A DNA stretch of 64,000 nucleotides, from the IMG/VR virus record IMGVR_UViG_3300031851_000001; one strand, written 5' to 3'. Below are positions 25,685 through 48,906 of this stretch, piece by piece; the first letter of the stretch is position 1; every line of letters starts with the position of its first letter. The position numbers and the translations under genes were made by a program. The notes beneath the pieces are model-generated. The model worked only from the letters and a program-made list of their open reading frames with translations. It did not search any database and was not told the DNA's origin. Source of the stretch: a virus (lineage: Duplodnaviria > Caudoviricetes).

Positions 25685-25688
25685 ACTC

Positions 25689-26066: not shown

Positions 26067-26125
26067 TATTGTCTCCATTTAATTATAGTGTTTGATTCAT
26101 CTTACACTCTTTTAATTTATAGTTC

Positions 26126-30182: not shown

Positions 30183-30561
30183 GCAAAGCGCATATCATTT
30201 AACGGCATCGTTGTTTAAAGATGATCTGACTGACGTAGAAATTAATTGGCAGCCAGATAATATTGTTGATTATGCTCTTATACATTTCAGAGAATATGTT
30301 GACGAATGGATTTATCCTGCAAAATCATATGTGGTTGCGATATGTTATGCGCATTGGTTAAACAGAGATTTTAAAGAACCATTCTTTGATGCGCTTAATG
30401 ACGAAGCTTTATTGTTTAATAACGATCCACACTTTGTTCCATATTGGCAAGACAAAGATACATATGACGAAATATTATTTAAATTAGACTTTAACGAAAA
30501 ACTTGGTATGGTACCTGACATATACGAATACTATAAAGAGGAAATGTTATTTGGACTTTGA
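30163..30561 (+). CDS. hypothetical protein in radical SAM operon
   Basis: 132 aa, overlaps both neighbours. Confidence 0.7.
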   Translation: MKEWKARQSAYHLTASLFKDDLTDVEINWQPDNIVDYALIHFREYVDEWIYPAKSYVVAICYAHWLNRDFKEPFFDALNDEALLFNNDPHFVPYWQDKDTYDEILFKLDFNEKLGMVPDIYEYYKEEMLFGL

Positions 30562-33332: not shown

Positions 33333-34443
33333 TTACATCTTTATTTAAGATGCATTCTTTTCTTCCATCAAACACAGTATCCATAATCATTGGAACCATT
33401 CTATTCGCACATATATTTAAATACTTACAACTGCCACACTCTTTTTCAGAACTTTTTTCAATTTGGCTATTGACAATCTCGTTCTTTTTGTTTAATATAT
33501 AATCAACAATATCGGCATCAGGTAACCAAAGCCAACTATTATCAACTTTAAAATCATCTGTATGGATTTGAGCATTCTCATATATGAATGGCGACAAATA
33601 CATATCTCCGTGGTATATACTAACTACAGAATAATGAAACGCTTTATGTGATACGTCACCTTGTAAGAAATGGAATTTGTTTTTAAACTTATGTGGATCT
33701 GCAGCCAATCGAGTTAACATATCATTCCATTCAAATAGTTTGTCTCCGTGCTTTGCGCTATGATTAAAAGAACGTACTACTGACGGTAATACTTCGATTA
33801 CTGTTTCATACCTAGCTCTAACAAATTCAATAGCAGGAAATAATATATCTTCTACACCTTGCACGATATTAGTAGCCATACTTATTTCAAAGTTTAAAGA
33901 ACTATTTTTAAATGTTTCAACTCTTTCATCAAGTGCATCTAGGTATACCTGATCATTCATTAATCTATTTAAATCCAAAGCAATTTGTACATCCCATGCT
34001 TCGACTACTTCGCCTAGCATTGAGTTTTCAATAGCTTTTATTTTACCTTCAATATCTTTTTCAGATAATGATCCGAGTATAGAACAGTTATGTTGGATAT
34101 TTCTATTATCTTCAGGCATCATGGATATGGCATCAGCAAGCCTTTGATTATTAATAATCTCTTCTAAATTTTGAGCACCATAAAAGTCGGTTGGGCCAAT
34201 CACAATGTCGTCTAATACAATATCAGTTCTATCTTTTAATTCAAATGCCAAGGAATGAAATGTTGCGATTGAGTTTGGGTTCCAATTACCTTTACGTTTA
34301 ACAAAACAACCCGGACACATATATGAACAACCTTCGAGTATTTCAAGGTTGACCTGTATTTTATATTCTTTCATATTGTCGATTGAAGTAAATTCCTCAC
34401 CTCGCCCACCGTCTACAATATTTTTCCAATCATTATTTAACAT
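33289..34443 (-). CDS. divergent radical SAM protein (rSAM-H)
   Basis: CSYMCPGC, IGPTDFY, CGSCKYLNIC...C. Confidence 0.85.
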   Translation of the reverse strand: MLNNDWKNIVDGGRGEEFTSIDNMKEYKIQVNLEILEGCSYMCPGCFVKRKGNWNPNSIATFHSLAFELKDRTDIVLDDIVIGPTDFYGAQNLEEIINNQRLADAISMMPEDNRNIQHNCSILGSLSEKDIEGKIKAIENSMLGEVVEAWDVQIALDLNRLMNDQVYLDALDERVETFKNSSLNFEISMATNIVQGVEDILFPAIEFVRARYETVIEVLPSVVRSFNHSAKHGDKLFEWNDMLTRLAADPHKFKNKFHFLQGDVSHKAFHYSVVSIYHGDMYLSPFIYENAQIHTDDFKVDNSWLWLPDADIVDYILNKKNEIVNSQIEKSSEKECGSCKYLNICANRMVPMIMDTVFDGRKECILNKDVIGLYDDEVYHGNSY

Positions 34444-35590
34444 ATGATATATCCTTTAATCGTTTTAGTTCTGGATCGTCATCATCAGTAACTAAAAACT
34501 TTTTACGATAACCGTTCTTATCGTTTTCAACAGAATAACCATCCCATCCATACATTGTCTGAGCAGGACCATTATAATTGTTTATATTATTTAGCATATT
34601 CTCTTTTGGTGCTATGCAGCGGTCTACTCCAAGGTAATCCCTTAACATTATTATTTTTCTGTTATAACAACTAAAGAATAATGGGCAATCCTCGCATTCA
34701 GTACCTTTTGCTCTTTTAATTTGATGTTCAACCATTGGAACAACATCATCAAAAGATTTGACTTTAAACATATCATCATATATCGCCATGTTCTCATACA
34801 TAAATGGACTTAAATACCATTCACCGCGTTTGTAGTTTAATACAGTGTAATTAATACCTGCGTGAGAATGGTCTACCATAATATTGTTTAGCTTGGACTC
34901 TTGGTGCCATGTGCTAAAGTATTCGTTAAACTCATCAAGCGTTTTTAAGATTATGTTTGCTTTATGCGAACGAGATACTGACGGAATAAAATCTAATATA
35001 GTATCAAAACGTTTTACAGCCTGATCATGCAATGCCTCATAATCTAATCCATAATCTTTAATGTTAACAACAAACGTATAAGTAACCTCATGTTGAATGT
35101 GTGTATCTATATAGGCTAACATATCTGATATATGTTTTGTGTATTCGTCAGTAAAAAACTTATGTGGATTTGTAGCGATACCAATTTCTATTTCAGTATC
35201 TAAATTAATATTATCAATAAGGAAATCGCAAAACTTTTTAATATCACCATCAATAAGAGTAGAGACAAAAGCTAGGATAGGTGAGTTTTCATTAATGATA
35301 TCTACGAGTTCTGGCATTACTTGATAGAAATTTTCTGATGCTAAAAAGTCTGTAGGACCAATTAATATTTCATCAACAAGTATCCCTTGGTCAGTAATAG
35401 AACGTATGAACTCTTTTGCCATATATACTTGGCTTTTATCACTAGAGTTACCCCGTCGATGTACAAAGCATCCAGGGCACTTGTGGTGACAACCGTCTAG
35501 TACATCCATTTGAATTTTAACAGCGCTGACGGGCTTAGTTTGGGTCTCTGTCGTCATCTCATAATAGAGATTATTTTTAATCAGAGGCAT
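34433..35590 (-). CDS. divergent radical SAM protein (rSAM-G)
   Basis: CHHKCPGC, IGPTDFL, CEDCPLFFSC...C. Confidence 0.85.
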   Translation of the reverse strand: MPLIKNNLYYEMTTETQTKPVSAVKIQMDVLDGCHHKCPGCFVHRRGNSSDKSQVYMAKEFIRSITDQGILVDEILIGPTDFLASENFYQVMPELVDIINENSPILAFVSTLIDGDIKKFCDFLIDNINLDTEIEIGIATNPHKFFTDEYTKHISDMLAYIDTHIQHEVTYTFVVNIKDYGLDYEALHDQAVKRFDTILDFIPSVSRSHKANIILKTLDEFNEYFSTWHQESKLNNIMVDHSHAGINYTVLNYKRGEWYLSPFMYENMAIYDDMFKVKSFDDVVPMVEHQIKRAKGTECEDCPLFFSCYNRKIIMLRDYLGVDRCIAPKENMLNNINNYNGPAQTMYGWDGYSVENDKNGYRKKFLVTDDDDPELKRLKDISYVK

Positions 35591-36599
35591 ACATATATTC
35601 CTTTAATGCGACGCAGCTATCTAATCCTCGCGACTCCATATATAAATGTATATTACGTTCAGCACAACTCATCATATACTCGCAGCCATTACAATCATCA
35701 ACCTGTTGAGCATAATCTATATTTTCATATAAAGTATTCGCATCCATTGTTGTTTCAAAATTTGGAGTTCTTTGAATAATAACATCATACAAGAATGGAT
35801 TTAAATATAGTTTATTATTATAGAAGCTATAATTTTGGCAGCCATATCCATTAAACTTTGCATCAAAAAATGTATAAAGGTTAAGCCATTTCTTATCAAT
35901 ATCTTGCTCAATCATTTCACGTCTAAAGTTTGCAAGGTGTTGTTCTACTTTACCACGCGCGTTCCTATCTGTTAAAAACGACGGTGTAATTATAACTGGT
36001 GCATTATAGTCATCATATATCCGTTGACATAAGTCGTTATATGTGATACGCTTAAATACATCTTTATGATAATTAACTCTAAATTGAACTGAACCTAACT
36101 CAAACATTTTAAGTTTACGGTTCCAATCGTCTAGTTCTCCATCAAGGTACTTGTCTATATCTAAAACGATTTTAAAATCAATATCAGGTACTCTATGAAC
36201 ACCTTCATATAAACTCCATATCATATCAAGTTTAGTTCTTATCTCGGCATATGATTGAAGTAATGTTGATGTAAATCCAACTGCTGATATTTCGTAAAGC
36301 TTTTTCATATATGGATGTTTCATAATTTCATGGAAGTTCTCTGCATCAAAAATGTCAGTAGGTCCAATCGTTATCTCGTCAGGATAATATGCGCCGTCCA
36401 TTAATAAATTGTATAATGTTTCTAAGTATTCAGGTTTAGTAAGGTTTTTACGTGGAATAAAACATCCTGGGCACGACTGAGCGCAGCCATGTAATATGTC
36501 TAGGTTTATTTCAGTACGTAAGAAGTCTGTATTAATAGGGCTCTTATCTTTATCATACGTATAATAACCTGCATATGTTTTATTCAGTTTTACTATCAT
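35577..36599 (-). CDS. divergent radical SAM protein (rSAM-F)
   Basis: CAQSCPGC, IGPTDIF, CNGCEYMMSC...C. Confidence 0.85.
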   Translation of the reverse strand: MIVKLNKTYAGYYTYDKDKSPINTDFLRTEINLDILHGCAQSCPGCFIPRKNLTKPEYLETLYNLLMDGAYYPDEITIGPTDIFDAENFHEIMKHPYMKKLYEISAVGFTSTLLQSYAEIRTKLDMIWSLYEGVHRVPDIDFKIVLDIDKYLDGELDDWNRKLKMFELGSVQFRVNYHKDVFKRITYNDLCQRIYDDYNAPVIITPSFLTDRNARGKVEQHLANFRREMIEQDIDKKWLNLYTFFDAKFNGYGCQNYSFYNNKLYLNPFLYDVIIQRTPNFETTMDANTLYENIDYAQQVDDCNGCEYMMSCAERNIHLYMESRGLDSCVALKEYMYASD

Positions 36600-37416
36600 C
36601 GGCTACACTAGCGGCATTGGCTTTAGCCTCTGCTTCGATTTCAGCTTGTAAATCTTCATCAGACTTTGGTTTTGGAATTTCAACGCTGTTAATAAACCCA
36701 GGAGGCATCATTGATAAAATGTTACTAGTAATATTACTTTGTGTCAATAAGAAAAACAAATCTTTACCAAAGTATGCAGGTTTATCATTATACATCTGTT
36801 TATTATATTCTTGTTTAAATCCAAGCATAGAACAAACTAATAGGAAACCATCCCAGCCATCTATAAGAAGGCGTGCAACGTTTGGACCACAATTTGCTGG
36901 CTTGTCAGTTACTTCAATTTGCTCAACAGCTTCTTTTACATCAACTTCAATTGCTTTGTTTTCATCTGATAAGTTTTCGTAAAATTTGCAGAGTGTGAAT
37001 GGAATAAGTTCAGCCATTGCATTACAAACATCTTCTATAAGTTCATAGTTTTTGTCTACGAAGTCGTGCAATTGTTCTTTACTAAAGAGGCCAAGTAATT
37101 GTTCTTCTAAGCCATTAAACTCATACATGTATCTTACTTTGATTGCCATTACAACAAACCGTGATAGCAGTGGTGCTTCTACGATAAAGTCTGATTTAAT
37201 ATATTCTATTAATAGTTCTTCGTCAACCTGCGCAAAGGTTGTTTTAAAATTAGTATTGGCCAAATAGATTAGAATATGTTTGGCTGATAACTTTTCTTTT
37301 GATGCTAAATAATCTACCCATAAAACAAAGTTTTCGTTGTCTTCTTTTAATTTATATATTTCAACTAAATTTTGCGGTGCTAATGGCAGCGTATATAAAG
37401 TTTGCTCTTCACTCAT
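36580..37416 (-). CDS. hypothetical helical protein in radical SAM operon
   Basis: 278 aa, overlaps next gene. Confidence 0.75.
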   Translation of the reverse strand: MSEEQTLYTLPLAPQNLVEIYKLKEDNENFVLWVDYLASKEKLSAKHILIYLANTNFKTTFAQVDEELLIEYIKSDFIVEAPLLSRFVVMAIKVRYMYEFNGLEEQLLGLFSKEQLHDFVDKNYELIEDVCNAMAELIPFTLCKFYENLSDENKAIEVDVKEAVEQIEVTDKPANCGPNVARLLIDGWDGFLLVCSMLGFKQEYNKQMYNDKPAYFGKDLFFLLTQSNITSNILSMMPPGFINSVEIPKPKSDEDLQAEIEAEAKANAASVADDSKTE

Positions 37417-37431
37417 AATAAAATCACTTTC

Positions 37432-38535
37432 TTATATCAATGGGTATTTATGAATTAAATATGGAATTCTGTTTTGACGTTTTGAAAAGAACTGAACATC
37501 TGTGTTAATTAATGCCAAGTCTTCTCTAATATTATCTGTGTTAAAGTTTCTTTCTAAAACTTTTTTAACAATAGGGAACACGTTATTGATTTCAGTATAT
37601 AAATCCATGTATTCCCAACCGTCAGCAGTCGTATCAGCTTTATTTTGATGAACGGCTATAAAGGCAGCGTCGTCTTTAACTTTATTCCACATTTCTTCTA
37701 ATTTATAAAACGCTAATGTATAGTTAGATTTATTAGCAGCATTTACATATACGTCTTTAAAGAATTGTTGTTTATCTGTAGCCCAGCCATTTTCTTCAGT
37801 TGCATTAGCATTCATATAATCAATAACTGACATAATATATGCCGAGTAGTGACGACGTGAAGTAAAGTGTTCCATAACATCTTTTGCCATAACTGGTGAA
37901 TGAATAGTAAATTTTTCAACAATCAATTCTGAAACGCCTGCACATGAATAGAAATCGTTTAAGAAGAATAGCAAGTCATAACTAAAGTTTTTACCATTCT
38001 GATATGTAATTACCCAAGGTGTTTCGCCTTCAGCATTTAATAAAGTATTTGTATGGTTTCTAACATCGTTATAAACTGTCGAGTTGCTCATTAAAGATAA
38101 TACTAAATCTTGGTTAATAACTGCTTCCATATAATGAGCAACCATCGCATTAATTGTTGTTGCATCTGCGTCAGGATAAAAACCACATGATGTTAACAAA
38201 CCAGCAGTATATTTTGCAAATACTTTAATCATATCCTCTTCGTCTGTAAACATAAGAATACGCTTATCACTATTTTGAATATAAGTAGGATTGGCAATAG
38301 TATCCCATTCTTCAAAATCTAATAGTTCTGATGAGCCTGATCGTGCACCTTCTGCCAGCGCTTCATACTCAGCAGGCTGAAGAAATGAGTCTACAAGGTC
38401 AGGCTGTACAATAGTAATTCGTCTTGGTTCAGCAGTGTGGTAAAAAGAATTTAATTCACCAATTACTGTTTCAACGTTTTGTGTATTCGTAATATACTTT
38501 TTATTATTTAAGTAATATAAACTCTGCCCAATCAT
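37432..38535 (-). CDS. hypothetical protein in radical SAM operon
   Basis: 367 aa, ATGA overlap with rSAM-E stop. Confidence 0.75.
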   Translation of the reverse strand: MIGQSLYYLNNKKYITNTQNVETVIGELNSFYHTAEPRRITIVQPDLVDSFLQPAEYEALAEGARSGSSELLDFEEWDTIANPTYIQNSDKRILMFTDEEDMIKVFAKYTAGLLTSCGFYPDADATTINAMVAHYMEAVINQDLVLSLMSNSTVYNDVRNHTNTLLNAEGETPWVITYQNGKNFSYDLLFFLNDFYSCAGVSELIVEKFTIHSPVMAKDVMEHFTSRRHYSAYIMSVIDYMNANATEENGWATDKQQFFKDVYVNAANKSNYTLAFYKLEEMWNKVKDDAAFIAVHQNKADTTADGWEYMDLYTEINNVFPIVKKVLERNFNTDNIREDLALINTDVQFFSKRQNRIPYLIHKYPLI

Positions 38536-39707
38536 GATCTTACTCCTAATTTTTCTATTGCGTCATCGTTCCAAGTAAAATCATACGGGTTATATTCTGC
38601 AAGGACATCTTTGTTCAATACACAACCGTTGACGTTTAATGATTCTTGGGCTTCAAAGATTAATCTGCTTGCACAGGCAACTGCAAATTTACAGTCAGCA
38701 CAATCTTTTACTTTACTAGACCTATTTATACCTTTTGTCACTAGTTCATTTTTACGATCTAATATTTGCTCGAATGTTAAACCAGTAACATCTAAATTTT
38801 TATTACCTAAGAAAAACGCTTGCTCATGCAGCATTACATTTAGGTGTGTAGTTGGACCATTTTCTCCTGGGACAATAGTAAGTCCAACAAAGTTAATTGA
38901 GTTACAATAAAGATTAGCCATTGACATAACGGTTTCTTGCGCATTATCTTTATCAATAACTCTACCAAGGAAATCGTTCCAACCAAATAAATTCTTTCTT
39001 TGTATCAATTGTGAATTGGCTCTAGAGAAAGCAGGGTTCATTTCTACAATTGTTTCATATTCGTTTACAGATTTTTGAATAATTTTATTATAAGTTTCTT
39101 TATCAATTTTTCTACCAACAACGTTAGAAGCCTGTAATGTCCACGACCAATCCATTTGTTTTGGTGTATTATTTTTAAAGAACTCTACCTTTTCCATAAC
39201 GTTATTAAAATATTCGTCATCGTTTAACATCTGATCTACTCTACCGATTGGCATAATAAATTCGATAATCATTTCGCGACGATACTTATCCTCATCATCA
39301 AGTACGGCAAAGATTTCTTTTACTTTATCCATAGTAGCCAAATCAAATTTAGCAGGTGCCGCGATACGAGCGCCAGTATGTTCTCTCATAATTTCTTGGA
39401 CTACTGAATTATTTAATACTGACTCTGTATTTTTAGCAGTGAAAAAGTCTGTTGGTCCAATAACGAACTCTCTTAAGTTAAGTCCAGTTCTTTTTACACC
39501 ATCTGCTAATTCTTTTGCTCTATCAATAATTTGTTGGTTCATAGCAGGGTCTATGTTTTTATCAACGAAACAACCTAAGCAGCCGTGATTACATCCTGCT
39601 AAAACTTCCATTTGAATTAGAACATCAAACTTAGTAGCATCTGACGGTGTTAGGCTTTCTGGACCAGAGTACCGCATTTGCTTACAATATGATTTTTGCA
39701 TTGACAT
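38532..39707 (-). CDS. divergent radical SAM protein (rSAM-E)
   Basis: CNHGCLGC, IGPTDFF, CADCKFAVAC...C; start at 39707, 1 nt after the upstream stop (track's 39800 extension lies in the upstream gene). Confidence 0.85.
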   Translation of the reverse strand: MSMQKSYCKQMRYSGPESLTPSDATKFDVLIQMEVLAGCNHGCLGCFVDKNIDPAMNQQIIDRAKELADGVKRTGLNLREFVIGPTDFFTAKNTESVLNNSVVQEIMREHTGARIAAPAKFDLATMDKVKEIFAVLDDEDKYRREMIIEFIMPIGRVDQMLNDDEYFNNVMEKVEFFKNNTPKQMDWSWTLQASNVVGRKIDKETYNKIIQKSVNEYETIVEMNPAFSRANSQLIQRKNLFGWNDFLGRVIDKDNAQETVMSMANLYCNSINFVGLTIVPGENGPTTHLNVMLHEQAFFLGNKNLDVTGLTFEQILDRKNELVTKGINRSSKVKDCADCKFAVACASRLIFEAQESLNVNGCVLNKDVLAEYNPYDFTWNDDAIEKLGVRS

Positions 39708-39708: not shown

Positions 39709-40092
39709 TTATCTTCTTCCTCTCGAACTGTGGCAACTAGTATGACAACTTGCGTGACAATAGTATGCGTTAATAGTTCTGTTTGACATTCTTCCTTCAA
39801 TTAGATCAACTGTTCTTCTAGTTATATCTTCCAATGTATCAACAATATCCTGTCCGTAAATAATATTACCACTATTGATACCACCATCTACATAGTTATC
39901 ATATACATAGTAGTTTGCATTAACATATTCAAATCTATGGTAATGCCACTGTCCTCTAGTATAACTGGTAGCAGCACTACTAGCTCTTACATATGCGTTA
40001 ACATAAATTCCAACCGTTCTATCGAACGTTCTTAATTGTTGACCACTATATGTTCTTACCCACGACCTAACGTCATTTCTATCCATAGTCAT
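39709..40092 (-). CDS. putative radical SAM substrate/precursor protein 2 (C-terminal CHASCHTSCHSSRGRR)
   Basis: 127 aa, Tyr/Asn/Arg-rich, TAATG-coupled to its paralog. Confidence 0.8.
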   Translation of the reverse strand: MTMDRNDVRSWVRTYSGQQLRTFDRTVGIYVNAYVRASSAATSYTRGQWHYHRFEYVNANYYVYDNYVDGGINSGNIIYGQDIVDTLEDITRRTVDLIEGRMSNRTINAYYCHASCHTSCHSSRGRR

Positions 40093-40472
40093 TAGCGGCG
40101 CCCTCTCGAACTATGACACGAAGAATGGCAACTTGCGTGGCAATAATATGCATTAATAGTTCTGTTAGATATTCTACCTTCGCATAAATCAACCGTTCTA
40201 CGAACAACGCTACGAATAGAATCAATAACATCACCAGAACGAATAATTCCGCCAGTGTATATACCGCTATCCAGATAATTGTTATATACATAGTAGTTTG
40301 CATTTACGTATTCAAACCGCGTATAATGCCATTGACCTCTGGTATAACTTGTTCCCCAGTTAGAACCTCTAACATAAGCGTTGATATAAAATCCTACGGT
40401 TCTATCAAATGTTCTTAATTGTCGACCACATTGGTTTCTTACATTTGTATTTAACTGTGCATACGTTGGCAT
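40092..40472 (-). CDS. putative radical SAM substrate/precursor protein 1 (C-terminal CHASCHSSCHSSRGRR)
   Basis: 126 aa, starts 1 nt after the tail fibre stop; 83/111 residues identical to paralog (manual count). Confidence 0.8.
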   Translation of the reverse strand: MPTYAQLNTNVRNQCGRQLRTFDRTVGFYINAYVRGSNWGTSYTRGQWHYTRFEYVNANYYVYNNYLDSGIYTGGIIRSGDVIDSIRSVVRRTVDLCEGRISNRTINAYYCHASCHSSCHSSRGRR

Positions 40473-40473: not shown

Positions 40474-43400
40474 CTATACTTTAACCTCTACTTCACCATT
40501 TTCACTATCAGATATCGCAATACCAATAATATCAAAGCTATTTATACCAGCAGTACCATAGTCTACGGCACGGCCTTTACCATCACGATCAGCAATAATC
40601 CATTGACCTTTAGTTGCATCGCCATTAATAAGAACTGGAATACGTCCTTTAAGAGCAACGAATGGGTTCATCTTAGACTCAATAGAGTCATCGTTGTCAT
40701 ATTCAATATGCTCATTCATTCTGTATGCAGGATTTGTAGAAACCGCACCAGCAACTGGCATTCCGGGTTGATACAATGTTACTTCTTTATCGCCGCCGAT
40801 ACCTAGGATATACCCAGGACCATAAATCGCGTCTGCTTCATATCTCTCTGCAAGGTCAGCCCATCTTGCTGACGTAGCCGTACCAACAAACACACCATCG
40901 TTTGCGATATAAGATCTATCAGAACCATTTTGTCTAAACTGACAAATTCTGTTTGAGTTTCCGCCTGCAACGATATAGAAACGGTTTGAGTGATATTCAA
41001 TTTTACCAACGTCGTTTCCTGGGTTACCTGTCCAGCTTTCGTTACCTGATTCTTCAAATCTAATACATGGTGAATAACCATCTTGGTGGCGAGTTCTTAA
41101 CTGCCATTGTCCTGCAGCATTTAAATCACCGGACCATGTTCTGTCACCATACATCCAACGACACATTGTACCGTTATATGTCGCTCTAAGTTGGAAAGAC
41201 ATAGATGAAGAGTTATTGTTACCAGTAGCAGCCCAATACTGACCTTGATAAGAATAAAAGTGTCCACCTGTACCTTGGTTATATAATCCATTGCGTGCTG
41301 AATCATTTCGGAGCCAACTCCTAGCATAAATATCGTTGCCTCTCATACCTGTATTAAAGTTAGAAAACGATGCTGGATCACAATAATAACCGGTGTTGTT
41401 TGAGTCATAGAAGATAGGCGCACGGAAGCTAAATCCTGAGTAAGCATAGTTTGCATCACCATAAACTCTAAACAAGTCAGAGTTACCAATACCACCAGTT
41501 GCCTGACCGTGTCGGCCAATATAGAAGTCTGCGCCAGAAGTATTGTTGTTATTTGAGTCTAAGTTAATATACACAGAACCATATGAGTTGATACGAATAT
41601 CGTCAGAAGTGTTACCATTAAGATCTCTAGCAGAGATTGAGTGGTTTGTGCTGTTATCACCGTATAAGGTAATAAAGTCACCACGATCACGCATATCAAA
41701 CTGGTCAGCTCGTACAACATTCATTTGAGATGTAGATGCAGGGTCTGTATAACGACCCGTGTTATTATTGTCATAGAATATTTGAGCTCTTAATGAACTA
41801 CGTGCTTGTAATGAGTTATTTACATAAACATCATTAGCACCTAATGGATCAGTCGCATTGTTGATTGACATAACCTGATTATTCATGTTGTAGTCATCAT
41901 AGAAACGCATACCATTATAGTTTGCATTAGCACCAAACTTAATACCTGTATGGAAAGCAATTCTTAAATCAGGGTAACGATATGACCAACCACCGCCTTC
42001 ACGGTAAATAGCATAAGCAGCTGATTCATTAGATGAAAAGTATAAACCAAACGTATCGTCTTGTGATACATCATCTTTATGTATAAACCTATTTGCTCGA
42101 ACATCGCCAGCAAAACTGTTGTCACCGGCTGGATTTAAGAAGTATGAAGAGTTGTTACGATCGTAATAAACATCGGCATACATATTACCATATACTTCAG
42201 TTGTACCACCGCGAGTTCTTAATGCCCATCCTGCACTATTATTAAGGAAACCAATATCATTCGAGTTATTTGCATATACATAACCTCGAATAGTACCGGC
42301 GTTTTCATCTCTAAATCGTATACCATTAGCAGATGAACCACCAGCAATGTTCCAATAGTCATCATTATCTGAATAGAAATGCTGACCTGTTGCAGTGTTA
42401 TATAAACCTCTACCATTTGTATCGTTACGGAACCAACCATCGTTATATACTTCAGAACGAATATCAAGTGTGTGCATTACCGATGTACTAGCAAAGTCAC
42501 CATAATAACCTGTGCTATCTCTATCGTAATATCTGCCAGCGTAAGCTCCGCCTGTTACGAATACATTACCGTCACCACGAACGAGAAGATTTGTTGTTCC
42601 GGATAATCCGCCATCTTTAAATGCGATGTCTTCACCACCCGATGTAGCAATAATTAAATGATTATCGTTTGTATCAGTAGCTTGGATATAACCACGAACA
42701 TTACCAGCACCCGTAATAAATTGAGCTTCACCACCATCAGCAAACTGAATAACATCAACTTTTGATGTATTTGATGGATCCATATAGAAAGACGTATTAT
42801 CTGAGTCAACTAATCTACTTGCATAGAAGTATGAACTTGTACCACCACCTGGGTTAGCGTTATAGATAGCAATATCAGAATAAGAAGAATAGGCTGTACC
42901 TGAGTTCCATGACTGTTGCCATAGACGCATACCACGACCAGACTTTTTAAACATCAATAAGTTATCTGAACCACCAGAAGAGTCTGTGTAAGATCTTAAG
43001 TGTAAGTAATCGGCATATGGTGCAGTGTTATCGTTGTTCCAAGATGTGAAACCAAACGTTAGTCGACCCGCAGTATCTTCATTTGGTTCAATAATACGGT
43101 TATCTTTTCGTAACAATGTTTGAGCATAACCATCAACATTACCTTGGATTACGTTATCAACTTGTAGTGTTAATAGTCTTGAAGTACCGTTACCATCAAT
43201 TTTATATGCAGTGTTATCACTATCATACCAAATTGGTGAACGTAACTGATTAGTACCTAAGAAGAAACCATCTTTAGTAGAGGCTTGTTCTGTACCAGCC
43301 CAATGAAGTTCTGTATCACCTGCTTGGCGATAGATCGTAGCCCACTGATTGTTCGTATCGTTATAGATACCAGCAATACCAGCTCCACTTGACATGAATA

Positions 43401-46400
43401 CCCAGTCATCGTTAATAGCATAACCTGCGTAACCACCTTTATTACCAGTTACACTAATGGAACCATAATTACCAGTAGATGTATCTAATTGATAAGTTGA
43501 GCCACCAAATTGAACTGCGTTTGCACGAAGAACATTAGTAAGAGATGTTGAAGCAGGATCTAAATAATAAGCATTATCGTCTGAGTCATAGAACCGACTT
43601 GCATAAGAACCGTTTAGAGCAGTATGCGTACCTGTTACAACAACATTACGAGACATAGCCCAATCACCATTAGCATCAGTCCAGTTATCGTCAGTAACAA
43701 ATCTTAGTCTGTCTGGGTTAGTACCCTCTGCCATTCTAAGCATTTGAGTTCCACCAGCAACCAACTGCATATCGTCAGCGCCAATAAATCTGATATATGT
43801 ATTTGTATCACCATTATGTCTGATATATTCATCAGCACGTATTTCGTTAAATACAGATGTTGAAGCAGGGTCAGCATAATAAGCTGAGTTATTAGAGTCA
43901 TAAAACCTTTGAGCATATGAATAACGTCCAGCCCAAACATCACCGTCAGACTCAACACGTAAACGATATGTACCATTACCGGCGCCAGATGTAAATTGTA
44001 AATTACCACCAGAATTTGTTGCTAAGTCATTTGGTGACTCATAAATTTGCCATAGGTTTCCGCCGTTCCATGCTAGTCCTTCAGACGGTCCCGGATCGTT
44101 GAATGTTAATTTGTTTACGTTATTAATATTACCATTTGTCCAATCCCAGTTACCTGCGACTTTAGATGGACCTTTTGGTTCAATATAATAGTTAGTATCG
44201 TTAAGATCTCTAAACCTACCAGCATCAATAATATTTGCTGATATGTTGTCTGCAGAAACATCACCAGTAACAGTAAGATCCCCACCGATTGAAGCATCAG
44301 TAACGACAGTTAATCCTTCAGCTTTTATACTCGATTGTACATCAACTCTCTTTAGAATTGGTGGACCAAATTCACGAGTTGCACCGTTTGGCGCAAAGTT
44401 CATAAGAGAAACTAATCTAACAAACCGAACACCTGCACCATCTGAACCATTAAATGGCGTATGGGTAGTTGGAAGCGTATGCTCACCTTTATATTCAGTC
44501 CAGCCTGTGGCGGTGTGGTCAACCGCAGATGCCGCGAAGTATACAATACCATCGTTAGCAGCAATTGGATTTTTATCTTTATCGTATTGTCTAACACCTA
44601 AGTAAAATAAACCGCCAGTACCACTGATGCGTCGTACTGCCTGTTCTGCATAAATTGTTTCTCCCGGCTCAACTGGAATAAAGTCAGAGTCAAAATCTCT
44701 GTAACCGTTAGTTCTTAATACATAACTTGATGCGAATGGGCCATCACCATTTAAAACATAATCACTGGTAGATGTAGTTGCGCTATTTTCAATACCTTGC
44801 ATTGGTTGGATAACTCGTTTATCCCAATAATCTGATGCATCAAACATTTTCATATCAGCAAGGCCAGAGCCATACGTTTTTAACAATCCAAGATTTTCAT
44901 TACCACCATTAAGAGCAAGTGATCCAAATATACCAGCGCCATAAGCTTGTATGTCACCATTTTCTGAGAACCAGAAACGCTCACCTATATTATTAAACGA
45001 AATACCCATCGCAGAGCGAGAGTTTCTTGTTTGGTGGAATATAGATGGGAAGTTAGCATCAGCAGTAGTATTTTGTAAAACGATCAAACGTTGTTGTGCA
45101 GACTTAACTTCAAGTGGATATGTAGTATTATTAAAGATTGCGCTATCGCCTGCCTTAACAGATTTAAGTCTAGATTGACCAGACGGTTGCATATAAAATG
45201 CAGCGTTATTTAAATCATAGAATATTGGAGAACGCATACTGTTTGGAGCAGAACCATAACCGTTTTCAGCACCAATTTGGTGAATGTTATTTGAATGTAA
45301 TCTTGTAAAGTTATTTCTGTTTGCAGTCAGTGACCATTCATTATCAGTCTCGTTATACAGACCCATCTCTGTAGCACCGCTGGATATAAAGCCCCAGTCA
45401 TTACTAATCATATAACCTGCATAACCATCTCTTTCGCCTTCAACCATAATAGTCCCTTTAGGACCTGATGGTGAGTCGATAGTTAGAGAACTGCCATCCA
45501 TTTGGATTTGATTTGTTCTAACAACATTAAGTATAGATGTTGAAGCAGGATCTAAATAATAAGCATTGTTTCCTGAGTCATAATAACGTGGAGCGTAAAC
45601 ATCAAGGTTAAAGTCAGCAGAGTTATCATCAATGTTTAATCTCTGTGTATTATTGATAAACAATTTATAGATACCAGCGGCTGAGAAACCGAAGTATGTA
45701 TCTTCATCACCTTTATGTCTAATATAATCGTCTAAGTCAATTCTATTCATTACTGATGTACCAGCAAAGTCACCATAATAAGCGTTGTCATTATAATCGT
45801 AATAAGTAGGGAAATATGCCATGTCATTGGCATCGGCTGCTGATATGCCGCCGTTGAAATTCACTCTCTTATTGAATAGGAATATTGCTCTGTCTGTATC
45901 AAACTGAGCTGACCCTGCAACCTTAGATCCAATATCTAAAGTACCAGTTGGTGTTGTGAACCTATGAGCATTGGCTGTATTTGGCTCAAACTTGTAAGTT
46001 CCACCAGCATCAGAGAATATTGGAGAACGCATATCTGTTGCAGCTTCAGCATATGTTGAATATACATCAAGCTGTGCGGTTCCACCGGCAGTAAATATAA
46101 TTTGGTCAGCGCCAAAACCAATTTTAGTATTAGTATTTCCGTCGTGTATAATTTCACCGACAAGACTTATATTATTCATTCGTGATGTACTAGCAAAGTC
46201 ACCGTAGAATAAAACATCATCTGCATCTAGGTATTGAGCGAATGAAGCATTACCTGTTGATGTGAGTAATTTATTATTTCTAATTCTAAGATTGTTGGCA
46301 TCGTTCATATAGAAACCGCCACCTTGACCAAAGCCAAGTTCATCCATTCTTAGGAATGTAGCAGTTCCATTACCGACAACATATGCATCATCAGTACCAT

Positions 46401-48861
46401 TAAGTTGAAGCGATCCATCTATGTGAAGTTTACTATCTGTTTTTGTTCCGCTATTTAATATCGGTGTATTATCATGTTGAGTATATGCGACTGAGTCATT
46501 ACCGATTGTAATATCCCCTGTGCTAAGCATTGCTAATCTAGTTGATGCACCACTATCGTAGAAGTAAACTCCTTGGTCTGCATCAGATATAAAGTAAGCA
46601 TTCCTTGAGTTATCACCACGAATAGAGAACGCCGCTGCGCCATCTGATAAGAACTCTGCCCAATAAGCATTTTTACTTTGGTATGGATTACCACCAATGT
46701 CAATTCTATTAAGTGATAAGAGCGATAGCCCGCCATTATTACCAGCGATTGAAATTGTAGGGTTAGTAGTTGCACCTAATCCTGCGTATGGCGCGATCAT
46801 AATTCCGCCAGTGCCTGAGTTATTATCTACAAGATTAAAGTCTGTGCCTGCTCCAACATTAATACGACCACCAACTCTAAGTGAGTCAGAAGCACCAGTT
46901 TGACCAAGATCCAAATAATTTGTGGTTCCTGATGTATCATAATATACCGGTGCTTTCATATTGTCAACGGCAGTTACACCAGAATCTCTTACGAATAATC
47001 TATCAGAACCACCAGTTCTTACTTTAAATTCGTTTGCAGCAGAGAATGTAATAAGTGTATCAGCATCTCCTTGATGAATAATATCACCTTGTAAACTAAT
47101 ATTATTCATTACCGATGTACCAGCAAAGTCACCATAATATGAGTTATTATCAGAGTCGACAAATTGTGGTGCAAGAACATTATACGTGAATGTTGCATTT
47201 GAATTATTAAGAGTTAATCGTGCAGCGCCATTTGTTGTAAATGTTTGCGTATCTGCGCCAAAAGAAATCTTATTATTAGTATCACCATTATGGAATAAGT
47301 CATCGTTAATCCCAAGGTTATTAAATACCGATGTACCGGCAGGATCAGCATAAAAGTTATTGTCACTTGAGTCAAGGAACCTTGGTGCGATTAAGTCAAC
47401 TGATGATGTAACCGACGTATCAGTGATTGCTAATCTTGTTGCTCCACCTGTGTTTAAATTGATTGTGTCGGTATCAAATGATAACTTAGTATCGGTATCA
47501 CCATTATGGAAAAGATCGCTGTCAATTCCAATCGTATTCATTACAGATGTACCAGCAAAGTCACCAAGATATGCATTATTACCGCTATCTAAATAGCGAG
47601 GAGCCTTTACATCAACTAATGATGTTACGTCAGTGTCAGTAATTAATAACCTTTGACCTCCACCAGTATAAACTTCAAATTGGTTAGCAGCCGGGAAATT
47701 AATATATGTATCAGCATCGCCATCGTGCGAAATTGTCCCAACAAGACTGATGTTATTTAACCTAGATGTATCAGAAGGCCAAGATAGATATGTATTATCA
47801 GCAGAGTCTAAAAATTTATCAGCAATAAGATTACGACCAACAGTCCAATCTCCATTTAAATCTGAATATGTTTGATAAGCAAATACGCCATCAAGGAAAC
47901 CAATTTTACCATTGTCTGATGCCATAACTCTATTGTTACCCGCACCACGCATAGTAAGTAGTGCTGAGCCAGTTCCATCACCAATAGCAACTGTACCTTC
48001 AAACTCTAAGTTACCTGTAGCAACATCGTTAACATCTGAGCGAATAAACTGAGCAGCTTCTAATCCATCAACCGTGTCAGCATCAAATAAGTTACCTGCA
48101 CCTTCATCATCAGTTGTAATAATACGACCTAAGTCTGTACCTCCTGATATTAGTTTAAACCAATCATTTGTTTCATCCCATTGTAAAGATGAATTTGGTA
48201 AATTACCACGAAGAACTTCCCAACCAGCATTTTCTGTCGGAGCTCCTGTAGTAAAATTACTATTAAGAGTAATTAAGTTATCGGCAATTAAAACTGTTTC
48301 TGATTGAACTTCGGTACGTGTACCTTGTACTGTAAGGTTACCAGTGATAATATAATCACCGTCCAATGTATCATTTTGGTCAGAACGAACAAACGATAAT
48401 GAGTCAATTCCATCAAGAAAATCGGCATCTAAGCCTGATCCTGTACCATCGTTACCACTATACCAAACTGGTACGCCGTTAATGGAAGGAACATTAGTAA
48501 AATCCGCTTCAGTAGTATTAATTGTAAGCTGGACGTTATTACCGGCTTTGAATACCAAACCGCTTGCCGTATTATCATTAAATTTTATTTCGTTTGAGCC
48601 TGAGGTATTGTAAATACTGTAGTCACCACTACCTGTATTTTTAATTCGTAATGCACCTACGCCGCCTGCAAAATCCATTAAAGGAGTATCAATACCTCCT
48701 GTGTTCTCAACAGTAATTGGAACCGATGAGCCTGTGCTTGTAAGTTTGGCTGTGCCTGATACTTGTAATTTATTTACACCATCATCAGAGGATGTGCCGA
48801 CAAGAACGTTATTCTCCGATTGAAGACCGTTCTTTACTATGAATTTCTTATCATTTGCCAT
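40474..48861 (-). CDS. giant long tail fibre protein (~2.8k aa)
   Basis: ADFLDGIDS/ADTVDGLEA trimer motifs, many YD.DN..YY.DPASTS repeats, C-terminal TATSARWADLAERYEAD chaperone-like domain; start likely MANDKKF 48861. Confidence 0.85.
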   Translation of the reverse strand: MANDKKFIVKNGLQSENNVLVGTSSDDGVNKLQVSGTAKLTSTGSSVPITVENTGGIDTPLMDFAGGVGALRIKNTGSGDYSIYNTSGSNEIKFNDNTASGLVFKAGNNVQLTINTTEADFTNVPSINGVPVWYSGNDGTGSGLDADFLDGIDSLSFVRSDQNDTLDGDYIITGNLTVQGTRTEVQSETVLIADNLITLNSNFTTGAPTENAGWEVLRGNLPNSSLQWDETNDWFKLISGGTDLGRIITTDDEGAGNLFDADTVDGLEAAQFIRSDVNDVATGNLEFEGTVAIGDGTGSALLTMRGAGNNRVMASDNGKIGFLDGVFAYQTYSDLNGDWTVGRNLIADKFLDSADNTYLSWPSDTSRLNNISLVGTISHDGDADTYINFPAANQFEVYTGGGQRLLITDTDVTSLVDVKAPRYLDSGNNAYLGDFAGTSVMNTIGIDSDLFHNGDTDTKLSFDTDTINLNTGGATRLAITDTSVTSSVDLIAPRFLDSSDNNFYADPAGTSVFNNLGINDDLFHNGDTNNKISFGADTQTFTTNGAARLTLNNSNATFTYNVLAPQFVDSDNNSYYGDFAGTSVMNNISLQGDIIHQGDADTLITFSAANEFKVRTGGSDRLFVRDSGVTAVDNMKAPVYYDTSGTTNYLDLGQTGASDSLRVGGRINVGAGTDFNLVDNNSGTGGIMIAPYAGLGATTNPTISIAGNNGGLSLLSLNRIDIGGNPYQSKNAYWAEFLSDGAAAFSIRGDNSRNAYFISDADQGVYFYDSGASTRLAMLSTGDITIGNDSVAYTQHDNTPILNSGTKTDSKLHIDGSLQLNGTDDAYVVGNGTATFLRMDELGFGQGGGFYMNDANNLRIRNNKLLTSTGNASFAQYLDADDVLFYGDFASTSRMNNISLVGEIIHDGNTNTKIGFGADQIIFTAGGTAQLDVYSTYAEAATDMRSPIFSDAGGTYKFEPNTANAHRFTTPTGTLDIGSKVAGSAQFDTDRAIFLFNKRVNFNGGISAADANDMAYFPTYYDYNDNAYYGDFAGTSVMNRIDLDDYIRHKGDEDTYFGFSAAGIYKLFINNTQRLNIDDNSADFNLDVYAPRYYDSGNNAYYLDPASTSILNVVRTNQIQMDGSSLTIDSPSGPKGTIMVEGERDGYAGYMISNDWGFISSGATEMGLYNETDNEWSLTANRNNFTRLHSNNIHQIGAENGYGSAPNSMRSPIFYDLNNAAFYMQPSGQSRLKSVKAGDSAIFNNTTYPLEVKSAQQRLIVLQNTTADANFPSIFHQTRNSRSAMGISFNNIGERFWFSENGDIQAYGAGIFGSLALNGGNENLGLLKTYGSGLADMKMFDASDYWDKRVIQPMQGIENSATTSTSDYVLNGDGPFASSYVLRTNGYRDFDSDFIPVEPGETIYAEQAVRRISGTGGLFYLGVRQYDKDKNPIAANDGIVYFAASAVDHTATGWTEYKGEHTLPTTHTPFNGSDGAGVRFVRLVSLMNFAPNGATREFGPPILKRVDVQSSIKAEGLTVVTDASIGGDLTVTGDVSADNISANIIDAGRFRDLNDTNYYIEPKGPSKVAGNWDWTNGNINNVNKLTFNDPGPSEGLAWNGGNLWQIYESPNDLATNSGGNLQFTSGAGNGTYRLRVESDGDVWAGRYSYAQRFYDSNNSAYYADPASTSVFNEIRADEYIRHNGDTNTYIRFIGADDMQLVAGGTQMLRMAEGTNPDRLRFVTDDNWTDANGDWAMSRNVVVTGTHTALNGSYASRFYDSDDNAYYLDPASTSLTNVLRANAVQFGGSTYQLDTSTGNYGSISVTGNKGGYAGYAINDDWVFMSSGAGIAGIYNDTNNQWATIYRQAGDTELHWAGTEQASTKDGFFLGTNQLRSPIWYDSDNTAYKIDGNGTSRLLTLQVDNVIQGNVDGYAQTLLRKDNRIIEPNEDTAGRLTFGFTSWNNDNTAPYADYLHLRSYTDSSGGSDNLLMFKKSGRGMRLWQQSWNSGTAYSSYSDIAIYNANPGGGTSSYFYASRLVDSDNTSFYMDPSNTSKVDVIQFADGGEAQFITGAGNVRGYIQATDTNDNHLIIATSGGEDIAFKDGGLSGTTNLLVRGDGNVFVTGGAYAGRYYDRDSTGYYGDFASTSVMHTLDIRSEVYNDGWFRNDTNGRGLYNTATGQHFYSDNDDYWNIAGGSSANGIRFRDENAGTIRGYVYANNSNDIGFLNNSAGWALRTRGGTTEVYGNMYADVYYDRNNSSYFLNPAGDNSFAGDVRANRFIHKDDVSQDDTFGLYFSSNESAAYAIYREGGGWSYRYPDLRIAFHTGIKFGANANYNGMRFYDDYNMNNQVMSINNATDPLGANDVYVNNSLQARSSLRAQIFYDNNNTGRYTDPASTSQMNVVRADQFDMRDRGDFITLYGDNSTNHSISARDLNGNTSDDIRINSYGSVYINLDSNNNNTSGADFYIGRHGQATGGIGNSDLFRVYGDANYAYSGFSFRAPIFYDSNNTGYYCDPASFSNFNTGMRGNDIYARSWLRNDSARNGLYNQGTGGHFYSYQGQYWAATGNNNSSSMSFQLRATYNGTMCRWMYGDRTWSGDLNAAGQWQLRTRHQDGYSPCIRFEESGNESWTGNPGNDVGKIEYHSNRFYIVAGGNSNRICQFRQNGSDRSYIANDGVFVGTATSARWADLAERYEADAIYGPGYILGIGGDKEVTLYQPGMPVAGAVSTNPAYRMNEHIEYDNDDSIESKMNPFVALKGRIPVLINGDATKGQWIIADRDGKGRAVDYGTAGINSFDIIGIAISDSENGEVEVKV
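41350..47830 (-). repeat. ~19 dispersed protein-level repeats (F/Y)xDxDNxxYYxD(P/F)A(S/G)TS in tail fibre
   Basis: Manual count in the translation; coordinates approximate. Confidence 0.75.
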
Positions 48862-48898
48862 TCGGTTCACTCTCCCCAGTTAGGCTTATTCTTTATTG

Positions 48899-48906
48899 TA
48901 TTTATA
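48899..48906 (-). promoter_or_regulatory. T4-type late promoter (fibre / precursor / rSAM operon)
   Basis: TATAAATA on minus strand just upstream of the fibre start. Confidence 0.8.

What the first reader, a model, noticed from the sequence alone, without database searches (positions are those of the whole stretch)
39709..40472. Tandem paralogous precursor-like proteins with a C-terminal (CHxS)3-RGRR core
Seen: 126 and 127 aa, 83/111 identical after residue ~16. Both end in NRTINAYYCHASCH(S/T)SCHSSRGRR and share a conserved Tyr/Trp/His/Asn-rich segment (TSYTRGQWHYxRFEYVNANYYVY). The 4-residue period combines a Cys-x3 spacing with His-x-Ser triads. Inference: the Cys could form thioethers and His-x-Ser or the aromatic-x-x motifs could form cyclophanes; alternatively the motif chelates metal, like His motifs in fibre tips. 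The ~110-aa N-terminal part is long for a leader and may be a folded, fibre-binding domain.
Basis: partly seen in the sequence, partly recalled or inferred. Interest (0 to 1): 0.9.

Follow-up and report, generated by a model that had tools for sequence, protein, structure and literature searches.

The report
Twin Cys-His-tailed phage fibre proteins
Two small neighbouring phage genes encode proteins that end in the same invariant 16-residue Cys-His-x-Ser tail. They belong to a large undescribed family that always sits beside radical-SAM enzymes and tail-fibre genes, so the tail is probably chemically modified on a host-recognition fibre, a kind of virion maturation nobody has studied.

Summary

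The window is a fragment of an uncultured marine T4-like myovirus. The twins lie in a late operon behind a 2,798-aa fibre gene and ahead of five radical SAM (rSAM) paralogs.

- **Family:** over 300 distinct homologs keep the tail almost unchanged, while the protein bodies are unrelated apart from the last ~54 residues.
- **Synteny:** in 135 loci from phages and predatory Bdellovibrionota, the tail protein sits with rSAM/SPASM enzymes, an unknown ~240-aa protein, a cupin, and a fibre protein carrying an intramolecular-chaperone-type C-terminus.
- **Virion evidence:** a homolog, Agrobacterium phage Atu_ph07 gp170, is in the published virion proteome. It runs far above its own mass.

Best reading (~0.55): fibre-associated structural proteins whose tail is the substrate of the co-encoded rSAM/SPASM maturases, perhaps through His-to-Ser cross-links. 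The chemistry is unproven, and a complex prediction gave no verdict. It is not a classical secreted RiPP.

The closest analog is the bacterial HXS defence system, but membership tests fail.

No paper describing this family was found. Earlier agents of this scan noted the same family on other DNA.

The parts
40092..40472 (-). Paralog A (126 aa), the 'A-type' tail protein. It has a folded body (helix 4-19, long hairpin 23-54, helix 79-100) plus a flexible tail at residues 111-126.
   Evidence: A-type is always the first of the pair, in 42/42 tandem loci.
39709..40092 (-). Paralog B (127 aa), the 'B-type' tail protein. Its start overlaps the stop of A (ATGA).
40095..40142 (-). Tail of A: CHAS-CHSS-CHSS-RGRR, the last 16 codons.
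39712..39759 (-). Tail of B: CHAS-CHTS-CHSS-RGRR, the last 16 codons.
40474..48870 (-). Giant repeat-rich fibre protein (2,798 aa). Its stop lies 1 nt before the start of A. Its last ~185 aa (about 40477-41030) are the conserved 'FIBc' domain, shared with 355- to 3,194-aa proteins at the same position in relatives.
   Evidence: A type I family member matches Pfam Peptidase_G2 IMC weakly (E 2e-5, 24.5 bits against a cut-off of 25).
38532..39707 (-). rSAM 'b1' (391 aa from the ATG at 39707), orthogroup clade 3. It is always immediately downstream of the A/B pair and has CX3CX2C plus a C-terminal Cys cluster.
37432..38535 (-). Unknown 367-aa protein (U370b), conserved in the tandem-type loci.
36580..37416 (-). 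Unknown 278-aa protein (U240), the most constant companion of the tail protein (117 of 135 loci). The AF2 model is confident but matches no known fold.
32277..36599 (-). Four more rSAM paralogs (b2-b5): 35577-36599, 34433-35590, 33289-34443 and 32277-33332. Each is a separate orthogroup present once per locus.
26810..32327 (+). Convergent operon: cupin (26810-27280); the clade-0 rSAM/SPASM enzyme (27231-28259), which is the universal partner of the tail protein in single-copy loci; rSAMs at 28250-29290, 29268-30182 and 30503-31627; and unknowns at 30163-30561 and 31608-32327.
26136..26699 (-). 2OG-Fe(II) oxygenase (PF13759, TIGR02466-like), a frequent member of the island.
48899..48906 (-). 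T4-type late-promoter motif TATAAATA, 29 nt upstream of the fibre gene. Further copies lie at 40539-40546 (-), 67 nt upstream of A, and at 26772-26779 (+), upstream of the cupin.
   Evidence: The function of these motifs is inferred from T4 biology.

Best explanation
A and B are small, late-expressed proteins of the phage's host-recognition (fibre) module, not antibiotic-type peptide precursors. Each has a folded ~105-aa body and a flexible 16-residue C-terminal tail, (Cys-His-x-Ser)x3-Arg-Gly-Arg-Arg-COOH.

The tail is most likely both the recognition site and the modification site of the co-encoded radical SAM/SPASM enzymes. In the infected cell these enzymes would abstract hydrogen atoms and install cross-links in the tail. 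The most plausible cross-links are His-to-Ser C-beta links across each H-x-S triad (i to i+2), as in three-residue cyclophane and daropeptide chemistry and as in the HXS system. The Cys residues would then act as a second cross-link donor or as metal or disulfide ligands. The result would be a rigid, protease-resistant and possibly covalently anchoring end-piece.

A and B are an ancient duplication that is always paired, so they probably work as a heteromer on the fibre encoded just upstream. That fibre's conserved chaperone-like C-terminal domain is the other constant of the locus.

Shown: family, tail invariance, synteny with rSAM and fibre genes, late-operon position, and virion presence of one homolog. 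Inferred: that the tail is the substrate, the chemistry, the heteromer, and attachment to the fibre.
For: (1) Tail invariance against free-varying bodies. All 120 close homologs and 134 of 149 distant representatives keep the tail. In 361 distinct tails His is 100/100/99% and Ser is 96/89/97%, otherwise Asn or Ala. The two subfamilies share only the last ~54 residues (hhalign probability 99%).
(2) Linkage. In 135 loci the tail protein co-occurs with U240 (117 loci), rSAM family a (113), rSAM family b (58), a cupin (65) and FIBc fibre proteins (76). One rSAM orthogroup (clade 0, 63 loci) lies directly upstream of the tail gene in 45 loci and one gene further in 8. Its window ortholog is 27231-28259.
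(3) That enzyme has CX3CX2C, GGEP and an invariant SPASM CX2CX5CX3C motif. Its best profile matches are peptide or protein cross-linking maturases: DarE 1.7e-13, DynA, anSME, HxsB, PapB and AmcB. Among solved structures the best are CteB, ChlB and anSME.
(4) Tight coupling in the window between fibre stop and A, A and B, and B and rSAM, with a TATAAATA motif before the operon.
(5) Atu_ph07 gp170 (296 aa, 31,894 Da, same tail) is in the virion proteome with 8 peptides and 35% coverage, and is most abundant in gel band 1 among proteins of about 90-130 kDa. Its neighbouring rSAMs and U240 were not detected (PMC6102473 Table S5).
(6) In two Bdellovibrionota genomes the same cassette lies among cellular genes, next to small proteins with a Peptidase_S74 fibre-chaperone domain. 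So the constant partner is a fibre, not phage DNA or phage metabolism.
(7) Precedent: rSAM-dependent modification of an H-x-S motif in a folded protein, HxsA (PMC13128918).
Against: There are no chemical data for any member. The complex prediction of the clade-0 rSAM with the tail segment scored 0.01; this is no verdict and is not evidence either way. The island has nine rSAMs, a cupin and a 2OG oxygenase, so some or all could act on the fibre or on another substrate. The five b-type rSAMs next to A/B are specific to the tandem subfamily, so they cannot be the universal tail enzymes. Virion evidence comes from one phage only. That gel's loading buffer, as described, lists no reducing agent, so the high apparent mass could be due to disulfides. 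All family-model hits are far below their curated cut-offs.
Confidence: 0.55

Rival explanations
1. The tail is an unmodified metal-binding or disulfide-forming assembly element. Three Cys and three His, possibly pooled across a trimer, would clamp the small protein to the fibre. The rSAMs, cupin and oxygenase would modify something else: the fibre, another protein or a small molecule.
For: The Cys/His composition and CX3C spacing fit this. AF2 puts a low-confidence helix at 113-120, which would line the Cys residues on one face. His-metal sites are known in fibre tips, such as the T4 gp37 HxH-iron site (my own knowledge, not tested here). gp170 runs at the top of a gel whose buffer, as described, lists no reductant.
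Against: Metal or disulfide binding does not explain the near-invariant Ser (96/89/97%), the absolute RGRR-COOH, or the fact that one SPASM enzyme orthogroup is glued to the tail gene in 53 of 63 loci. When Ser is replaced it becomes Asn or Ala, not a metal ligand.
Confidence: 0.2
2. The tail is a docking tag: a C-terminal recognition peptide that recruits the enzymes, while the modifications are placed elsewhere, either in the body of A/B or on the fibre protein to which A/B is bound.
For: The subfamily-specific b-type rSAMs co-vary with the subfamily-specific body. This subfamily has further invariant motifs outside the tail: QLRTFD, RFEYVNA and YNNYLD.
Against: Recognition elements usually tolerate more change than catalytic target residues, yet every Cys and His of 16 residues is fixed across bodies that share no other similarity. 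The HXS precedent places the modification on the H-x-S motif itself.
Confidence: 0.15
3. A and B are true RiPP precursors. A ~110-aa leader would be cut off and a ~16-residue modified peptide released as a toxin, signal or metallophore.
For: The core-like motif sits at the C-terminus next to rSAM/SPASM genes, as in many RiPPs. There is a non-significant hit to the CLI_3235 bacteriocin-precursor model (E 0.07-0.13).
Against: No protease, exporter or immunity gene is found among the conserved neighbours. The body is a confidently folded domain. The genes lie inside a late structural operon. The Atu_ph07 homolog is detected as a virion protein with 35% coverage.
Confidence: 0.05

Closest known systems
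HXS antiphage system (HxsA matured by the rSAM enzymes HxsB/HxsC with HxsD; Nat Commun 2026, PMC13128918)
   Same: A folded protein, not a short peptide, carries tandem His-x-Ser repeats and is encoded with several radical SAM enzymes and small accessory proteins. His and the terminal Ser of one repeat are essential and carry an rSAM-dependent covalent change of +8 Da. The repeats are rich in basic residues.
   Different: HXS is a bacterial defence effector exported to the periplasm. This system is a phage (and predator) fibre-module protein. Here each H-x-S is preceded by an invariant Cys, there are exactly three repeats, they lie at the extreme C-terminus, and they end in RGRR. No HxsA or HxsD model hit was found, and HxsB/HxsC hits are far below cut-off (31 bits against 370; 23 against 268).
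Three-residue cross-link RiPPs: triceptides (XyeB, GrrM, FxsB, HaaB, HtkB) and daropeptides (DarE, DynA)
   Same: These have repeated aromatic-x-x triads near the C-terminus of the substrate. SPASM rSAM enzymes link the ring of residue i to C-beta of residue i+2, and His is a known donor (HtkB and HaaB, PMC11499958, title and abstract seen). The clade-0 enzyme's best family hits are DarE and DynA.
   Different: All hits are 10-fold or more below the curated cut-offs. The substrate is a 125-600-aa structural protein that appears to stay intact. No leader protease or exporter is present. The invariant Cys and the RGRR have no counterpart. The cross-link itself is unproven.
Anaerobic sulfatase-maturating enzyme (anSME)
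   Same: It is a minimal rSAM/SPASM enzyme that acts on a full-length protein. It converts Cys or Ser in a C/S-x-P/A-x-R motif to formylglycine. The profile of the clade-0 enzyme aligns to anSME over its full length (4k37, E 2e-6). The last tail repeat reads C-H-x-S-R, so Arg is at +4.
   Different: anSME model scores are 32-42 bits against a cut-off of 349. Position +2 is Ser, Thr or Gly, not Pro or Ala. No sulfatase fold is present. The invariant His residues are unexplained by this chemistry.
Phage fibre accessory proteins and tip adhesins (T4 gp38 and gp57A; S74 and G2 intramolecular chaperones)
   Same: These are small proteins encoded directly after a fibre gene. Bodies are variable on a constant attachment element. 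The association is with fibres that end in chaperone-type domains (MAT fibres of Bdellovibrio, PMC10769870).
   Different: No sequence or fold similarity to any of them was found. None of them is known to need radical SAM enzymes (my own knowledge).

Membership tests
Radical SAM / SPASM maturases (the neighbouring enzymes) | CX3CX2C cluster motif and a SAM-binding GGE-type motif | tested here: met
   All nine window rSAMs have CX3CX2C in the N-terminal part. Clade 0 has invariant C19, C23, C26 and G63-G64-E65-P66. Pfam Radical_SAM scores 39.8 bits against a cut-off of 29.5 for 28250-29290.
Radical SAM / SPASM maturases (the neighbouring enzymes) | C-terminal SPASM motif CX2CX5CX3C with further upstream Cys residues | tested here: met
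   Clade 0 has invariant C302, C305, C311 and C315, plus C243, C246, C262 and C325. The SPASM domain model scores 25.7 bits against a cut-off of 27. rSAM b1 has only CX2CX5C plus one later Cys.
HXS system (HxsA/B/C/D) | Substrate matches the HxsA model and carries tandem H-x-S repeats | tested here: not met
   H-x-S occurs three times, but A and B gave no NCBIfam HxsA hit at E up to 1.
HXS system (HxsA/B/C/D) | Paired maturases that match the HxsB and HxsC equivalogs | tested here: not met
   HxsB scores 31 bits against 370, over the N-terminal part only. HxsC scores 23 and 16 bits against 268. The b-type rSAMs gave no such hit.
Triceptide / daropeptide RiPPs | Repeated aromatic-x-x triads in the substrate | tested here: met
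   There are three H-x-S triads, with His 99-100% conserved and Ser 89-97% conserved.
Triceptide / daropeptide RiPPs | Maturase that matches a known cyclophane or daropeptide synthase equivalog | tested here: not met
   DarE scores 50 bits against 650, DynA 35-48 against 450, AmcB 28 against 425, YhhB 26 against 445 and FxsB 22 against 370.
Triceptide / daropeptide RiPPs | A ring-to-C-beta cross-link (minus 2 Da per triad) | not testable with these tools
   This needs mass spectrometry or NMR of the matured protein.
Classical RiPP precursor | An unstructured leader removed by a cluster protease, and a product exported by a cluster transporter | tested here: not met
   The body is folded (pLDDT 82). 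The conserved neighbours include no peptidase or transporter family. The homolog gp170 is present in virions.
anSME / formylglycine system | The C/S-x-P/A-x-R motif and an anSME equivalog | tested here: not met
   Only the third repeat has Arg at +4, and position +2 is S, T or G. anSME scores 32-42 bits against 349.
Virion structural protein | Detected in purified particles | tested here: inconclusive
   This is shown for one distant homolog only, Atu_ph07 gp170 (PMC6102473 Table S5). It is not shown for this phage or this subfamily.

The most novel reading that the evidence does not exclude
Radical SAM enzymes turn the tail into a covalent staple or a reactive warhead. One possibility is cross-links that bond the small protein to the fibre or to its paralog. 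Another is a Cys-derived aldehyde or similar group that lets the fibre tip bind its receptor covalently. This would make enzyme-forged covalent chemistry a general, previously unseen part of how large phages and predatory bacteria build host-recognition fibres. The top-of-gel migration of gp170 would be its first trace.
Probability: 0.15. Interest if true: 0.9.

Novelty: new variant of a known kind. Interest (0 to 1): 0.75.

Why it matters
Radical SAM maturation is known for small secreted peptides, a few enzymes and, since 2026, one bacterial defence effector. It is not known for proteins of a virus particle.

This cassette is common. It occurs in abundant marine T4-like phages, in cultured jumbo phages of plant pathogens, and in predatory bacteria. 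It always sits in the host-recognition module and can take up 14 kb of a genome.

If the tail is modified, this would be a new layer of fibre biology affecting stability, attachment and perhaps host range. It would also add a new substrate class and probably new chemistry for SPASM enzymes.

The question is directly testable in cultured phages (Atu_ph07, RSF1/RSL2, FLC6/S13) and by co-expression in E. coli.

Tried and rejected
- **Complex prediction** of the clade-0 rSAM (alignment A2) with residues 76-126 of A (alignment A1): score 0.01 against a mark of 0.32, controls not run. This is no verdict and is not evidence either way.
- **Fold searches with the A model** (PDB, BFVD and AFDB clusters by Foldseek; PDB by VIA-align): nothing above noise. 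Best Foldseek E was 0.04-0.5 and best Z was 5.8, on generic helical proteins.
- **Fold and profile searches for U240** (pLDDT 90): only its own uncharacterised family matched. Z reached at most 4.7, and the profile search against PDB sequences gave E of at least 0.5.
- **Atlas feature searches** for U240 and U370b: scores of 0.82-0.89, at noise level.
- **Merging U370a and U370b** into one alignment: only ~10% identity, so homology is not shown.
- **tblastn against the cultured-phage collection** with A, a single-copy tail protein, and U240: no match. The low-complexity filter appears to mask the tail, because matches to RSF1 ORF071 stop at residue 170 of 186. The rSAM query did find carriers.
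- **Pfam, PHROGs and NCBIfam on A and B:** only two unnamed PHROGs (35144 and 19078) and a non-significant bacteriocin-precursor hit.
- **Literature searches** for a description of the system: papers only list 'radical SAM', 'cupin' and '2OG' genes in these phages (PMC7029224, PMC8066314, PMC11898562).
- **Rejected:** the idea that the Tyr/Trp/Asn-rich segment is a second core peptide. It lies in the confidently folded hairpin and is specific to this subfamily.

Full report
**1. What is there**

The window is almost all (bases 105-64102) of a 64,102-bp IMG/VR viral record estimated to be 29% complete. Its portal, sheath and tube genes are 65-69% identical in DNA to Pelagibacter phage HTVC008M and to T4-like cyanophages. 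So it is an uncultured marine T4-like myovirus.

On the minus strand the order is as follows:
- a 2,798-aa repeat-rich fibre gene (40474-48870);
- paralog A (40092-40472, 126 aa), starting 1 nt after the fibre stop;
- paralog B (39709-40092, 127 aa), with a start that overlaps the stop of A;
- a radical SAM gene, starting 1 nt after the stop of B (ATG at 39707);
- two unknown genes (367 and 278 aa);
- four more rSAM paralogs.

A convergent plus-strand operon at 26810-32327 holds a cupin, four further rSAMs and two unknowns. A 2OG-Fe(II) oxygenase gene follows on the minus strand.

The T4 late-promoter motif TATAAATA lies 29 nt before the fibre gene, 67 nt before A, and just before the cupin. 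Most of the other copies lie about 25-60 nt upstream of a co-oriented gene start. Late expression is therefore likely, but it is inferred.

**2.

- BLASTP gives 85/116 identical residues.
- The tail pattern occurs only at these two sites, against none in 100 shuffles.
- Of 111 aligned codons, 33 differ synonymously and 28 non-synonymously, and the two tails use different codons. This is old, selected similarity.

**3. The family**

A word-indexed search gave 180 clusters, and all 120 listed end in the tail. An exhaustive profile search of 1.84 billion representatives gave 162 hits. Of the 149 examined, 134 end in the tail. The others are fragments, frame-shifted ends or a few long unrelated proteins.

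Most distant members are 170-260 aa, and some reach 609 aa. Across 361 distinct tails:
- His is 100/100/99% conserved;
- Ser is 96/89/97% conserved, otherwise Asn or Ala;
- the x positions are small residues;
- the residue before the first Cys is hydrophobic;
- the ending is R-G/S-R-R.

A profile-profile comparison of the window's subfamily with the single-copy subfamily aligns only the last ~54 residues (a loop, an amphipathic helix, a strand and the tail) at 99% probability. The family is thus a constant C-terminal module on interchangeable bodies.

The AF2 model of A is confident for the body (pLDDT 82: helix, long hairpin, helix) and poor for the tail. It matches no known fold.

**4. Genomic context**

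I clustered the ORFs of 135 loci. The tail protein co-occurs with:
- an unknown ~240-aa protein, U240 (117 loci);
- rSAM family a (113 loci);
- a fibre protein family defined by one ~185-aa C-terminal domain, FIBc (76 loci);
- unknown ~370-aa proteins (68 + 36 loci);
- a cupin (65 loci);
- rSAM family b (58 loci);
- 2OG oxygenases (30 loci).

Loci without an rSAM are those with almost no flank.

Two architectures recur.
- **Type I:** big fibre, 77-aa protein, FIBc protein, cupin, rSAM, one tail protein (170-260 aa), U240, U370a, then more rSAMs.
- **Type II (this window):** FIBc protein, A, B, rSAM b1, U370b, U240, rSAM b2-b5, with the cupin-rSAM module nearby.

The upstream proteins range from 355 to 3,194 aa but share their last 185 aa at 56-77% identity. 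In one type I member this domain matches Pfam Peptidase_G2 IMC at borderline level (E 2e-5).

In an rSAM tree, the nine window enzymes fall into nine orthogroups, each present once per locus. Clade 0 (63 loci) sits directly before the tail gene in 45 loci and one gene further in 8. Clade 3 (30 loci) sits directly after the A/B pair.

**5. The pair**

In 42 of 42 tandem loci the order is A-type then B-type. A and B form separate clades with parallel branching, apart from one divergent lineage. Within-locus A-B identity (mean 0.55) exceeds between-locus A-B identity (0.45). This suggests an old duplication kept as a co-evolving pair. A heteromer is a reasonable inference but is untested.

**6. 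The enzymes**

Clade 0 has CX3CX2C, GGEP and an invariant SPASM CX2CX5CX3C motif.

Its best NCBIfam hits are peptide or protein cross-linking maturases: DarE 1.7e-13, CbpB, DynA, DarW, anSME, HxsB, PapB and AmcB. All score far below their curated cut-offs. Among solved structures, the best profile hits are an unnamed rSAM (8vpo), CteB, ChlB and, over the full length, anSME.

These are therefore SPASM maturases of no described equivalog.

**7. Cultured carriers and virion evidence**

The rSAM query found Ralstonia phages RSL2 and RSF1, Burkholderia phages FLC6, FLC8 and S13, Pseudomonas phage pPa_SNUABM_DT01, Agrobacterium phage Atu_ph07 and Sinorhizobium phage Phosso.
- RSF1 ORF069-ORF075 show the type I order behind a 'virion structural protein'.
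- Atu_ph07 gp172-gp168 show the same order, and gp170 (296 aa) ends in the tail with RSRR.

Its computed mass of 31,894 Da equals the 31.89 kDa listed for gp170 in the published virion proteome. That entry shows 8 unique peptides, 35% coverage, detection in bands 1-9, and greatest abundance in band 1 (PMC6102473, Table S5).

In the same table 30-kDa proteins peak in bands 7-8, while band 1 holds 87-127-kDa proteins. So gp170 runs far above its mass. The loading buffer, as described, lists no reducing agent. A disulfide link, another covalent link and an SDS-resistant complex are therefore all possible.

The neighbouring rSAMs and U240 are absent from the table.

The papers on these phages only list the rSAM, cupin and 2OG annotations.

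**8. Predatory bacteria**

In a Pseudobdellovibrio MAG (299-kb contig) the cassette lies among PilQ, PilM, prepilin peptidase, carAB, pyrB and signal peptidase genes. Beside it is a 348-aa protein with a pilin-type N-methylation motif and a Peptidase_S74 chaperone domain.

In a Halobacteriovoraceae MAG (382-kb contig) the cassette lies next to a 345-aa S74 protein, among metabolic genes.

S74-ended trimeric fibres are prey-recognition adhesins in Bdellovibrio (PMC10769870).

The element common to phages and predators is thus a chaperone-ended fibre, plus the tail protein, plus rSAM and U240.

**9. Interpretation**

The most economical reading is that the tail is what the SPASM enzymes recognise and modify, on a protein that ends up in or on a fibre.

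The H-x-S triads fit the i to i+2 geometry of three-residue cyclophane and daropeptide enzymes. They also fit the one precedent on a folded protein: HxsA, where His and Ser of an H-x-S repeat are essential and carry an rSAM-dependent +8 Da change.

Ser is occasionally replaced by Asn or Ala, but never by a metal ligand. This suits a C-beta acceptor better than a ligand or a dehydration site (inference).

What the invariant Cys and RGRR do is open.

The rivals cannot be excluded without mass spectrometry. They are an unmodified metal or disulfide clamp, a docking tag for modification elsewhere, and a true secreted RiPP. The last is unlikely, given the folded body, the lack of a protease or exporter, and the virion detection.

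**10. Novelty**

I found no paper that describes the tail family or links it to the rSAM genes.

Earlier agents of this scan noted the same family on other DNA, and one of their claims was later reported to have partly fallen. I therefore re-derived every point used here and mark the substrate role and the chemistry as inferred.

Noticed in passing
L152/L153 (G001:C4:177000-216999) and L154/L155 (G002:C7:236000-275999): In two Bdellovibrionota MAGs the whole cassette (rSAMs, tail protein, U240, U370a, cupin, a B12-binding rSAM) sits in ordinary chromosomal context. In one it lies beside type IV pilus genes. In both it lies next to small proteins with a Peptidase_S74 fibre-chaperone domain, and one of these also has a pilin N-methylation motif.
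   Followed up: partly
PMC6102473 Supplementary Table S5 (Atu_ph07 gp170; L149:17119-18009): The 31.9-kDa tail-protein homolog is most abundant in gel band 1, where 87-127-kDa proteins run. The described loading buffer lists no reducing agent. This could be a covalent or disulfide-linked complex.
   Followed up: partly
window 36580-37416 (-): U240 is the most constant companion of the tail protein. It gives a very confident AF2 model (pLDDT 90, pTM 0.83) with no recognisable fold match. The weak VIA-align rows include rSAM enzymes (ChlB Z 3.8, anSME Z 3.2), which is too weak to interpret.
   Followed up: partly
window 39709-40472 (-): A and B contain no lysine at all but 15-16 arginines each, in an AT-rich genome. 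Many homologs do have Lys (FDKT), so this is local to this phage.
   Followed up: no
window 7946-60908, 16 sites: 15 of 16 TATAAATA motifs are on the minus strand, and most lie about 25-60 nt upstream of a co-oriented gene start. This is consistent with T4-type late promoters across the structural region. The total count is not enriched over shuffles (16 against 10 +/- 4).
   Followed up: partly
type I loci, e.g. L092:2698-2916, L044:4971-5225: A conserved ~77-aa protein with a C-terminal coiled coil always lies between the large fibre gene and the FIBc protein in single-copy loci (20 loci). It may be a fibre joint or an assembly factor.
   Followed up: no
window 24276-26078 (-): Two small paralogous proteins (111 and 129 aa) and a 347-aa protein next to the 2OG oxygenase recur beside the island in other loci in the same arrangement (clusters c15, c15 and c17; 9-10 loci). 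Their function is unknown.
   Followed up: no
type I loci, e.g. L140:2152-3879: Many cassettes also hold a ~550-aa B12-binding-domain radical SAM protein (cluster c14, 19 loci). This hints at a methylation or other class-B rSAM step that is absent from this window.
   Followed up: no
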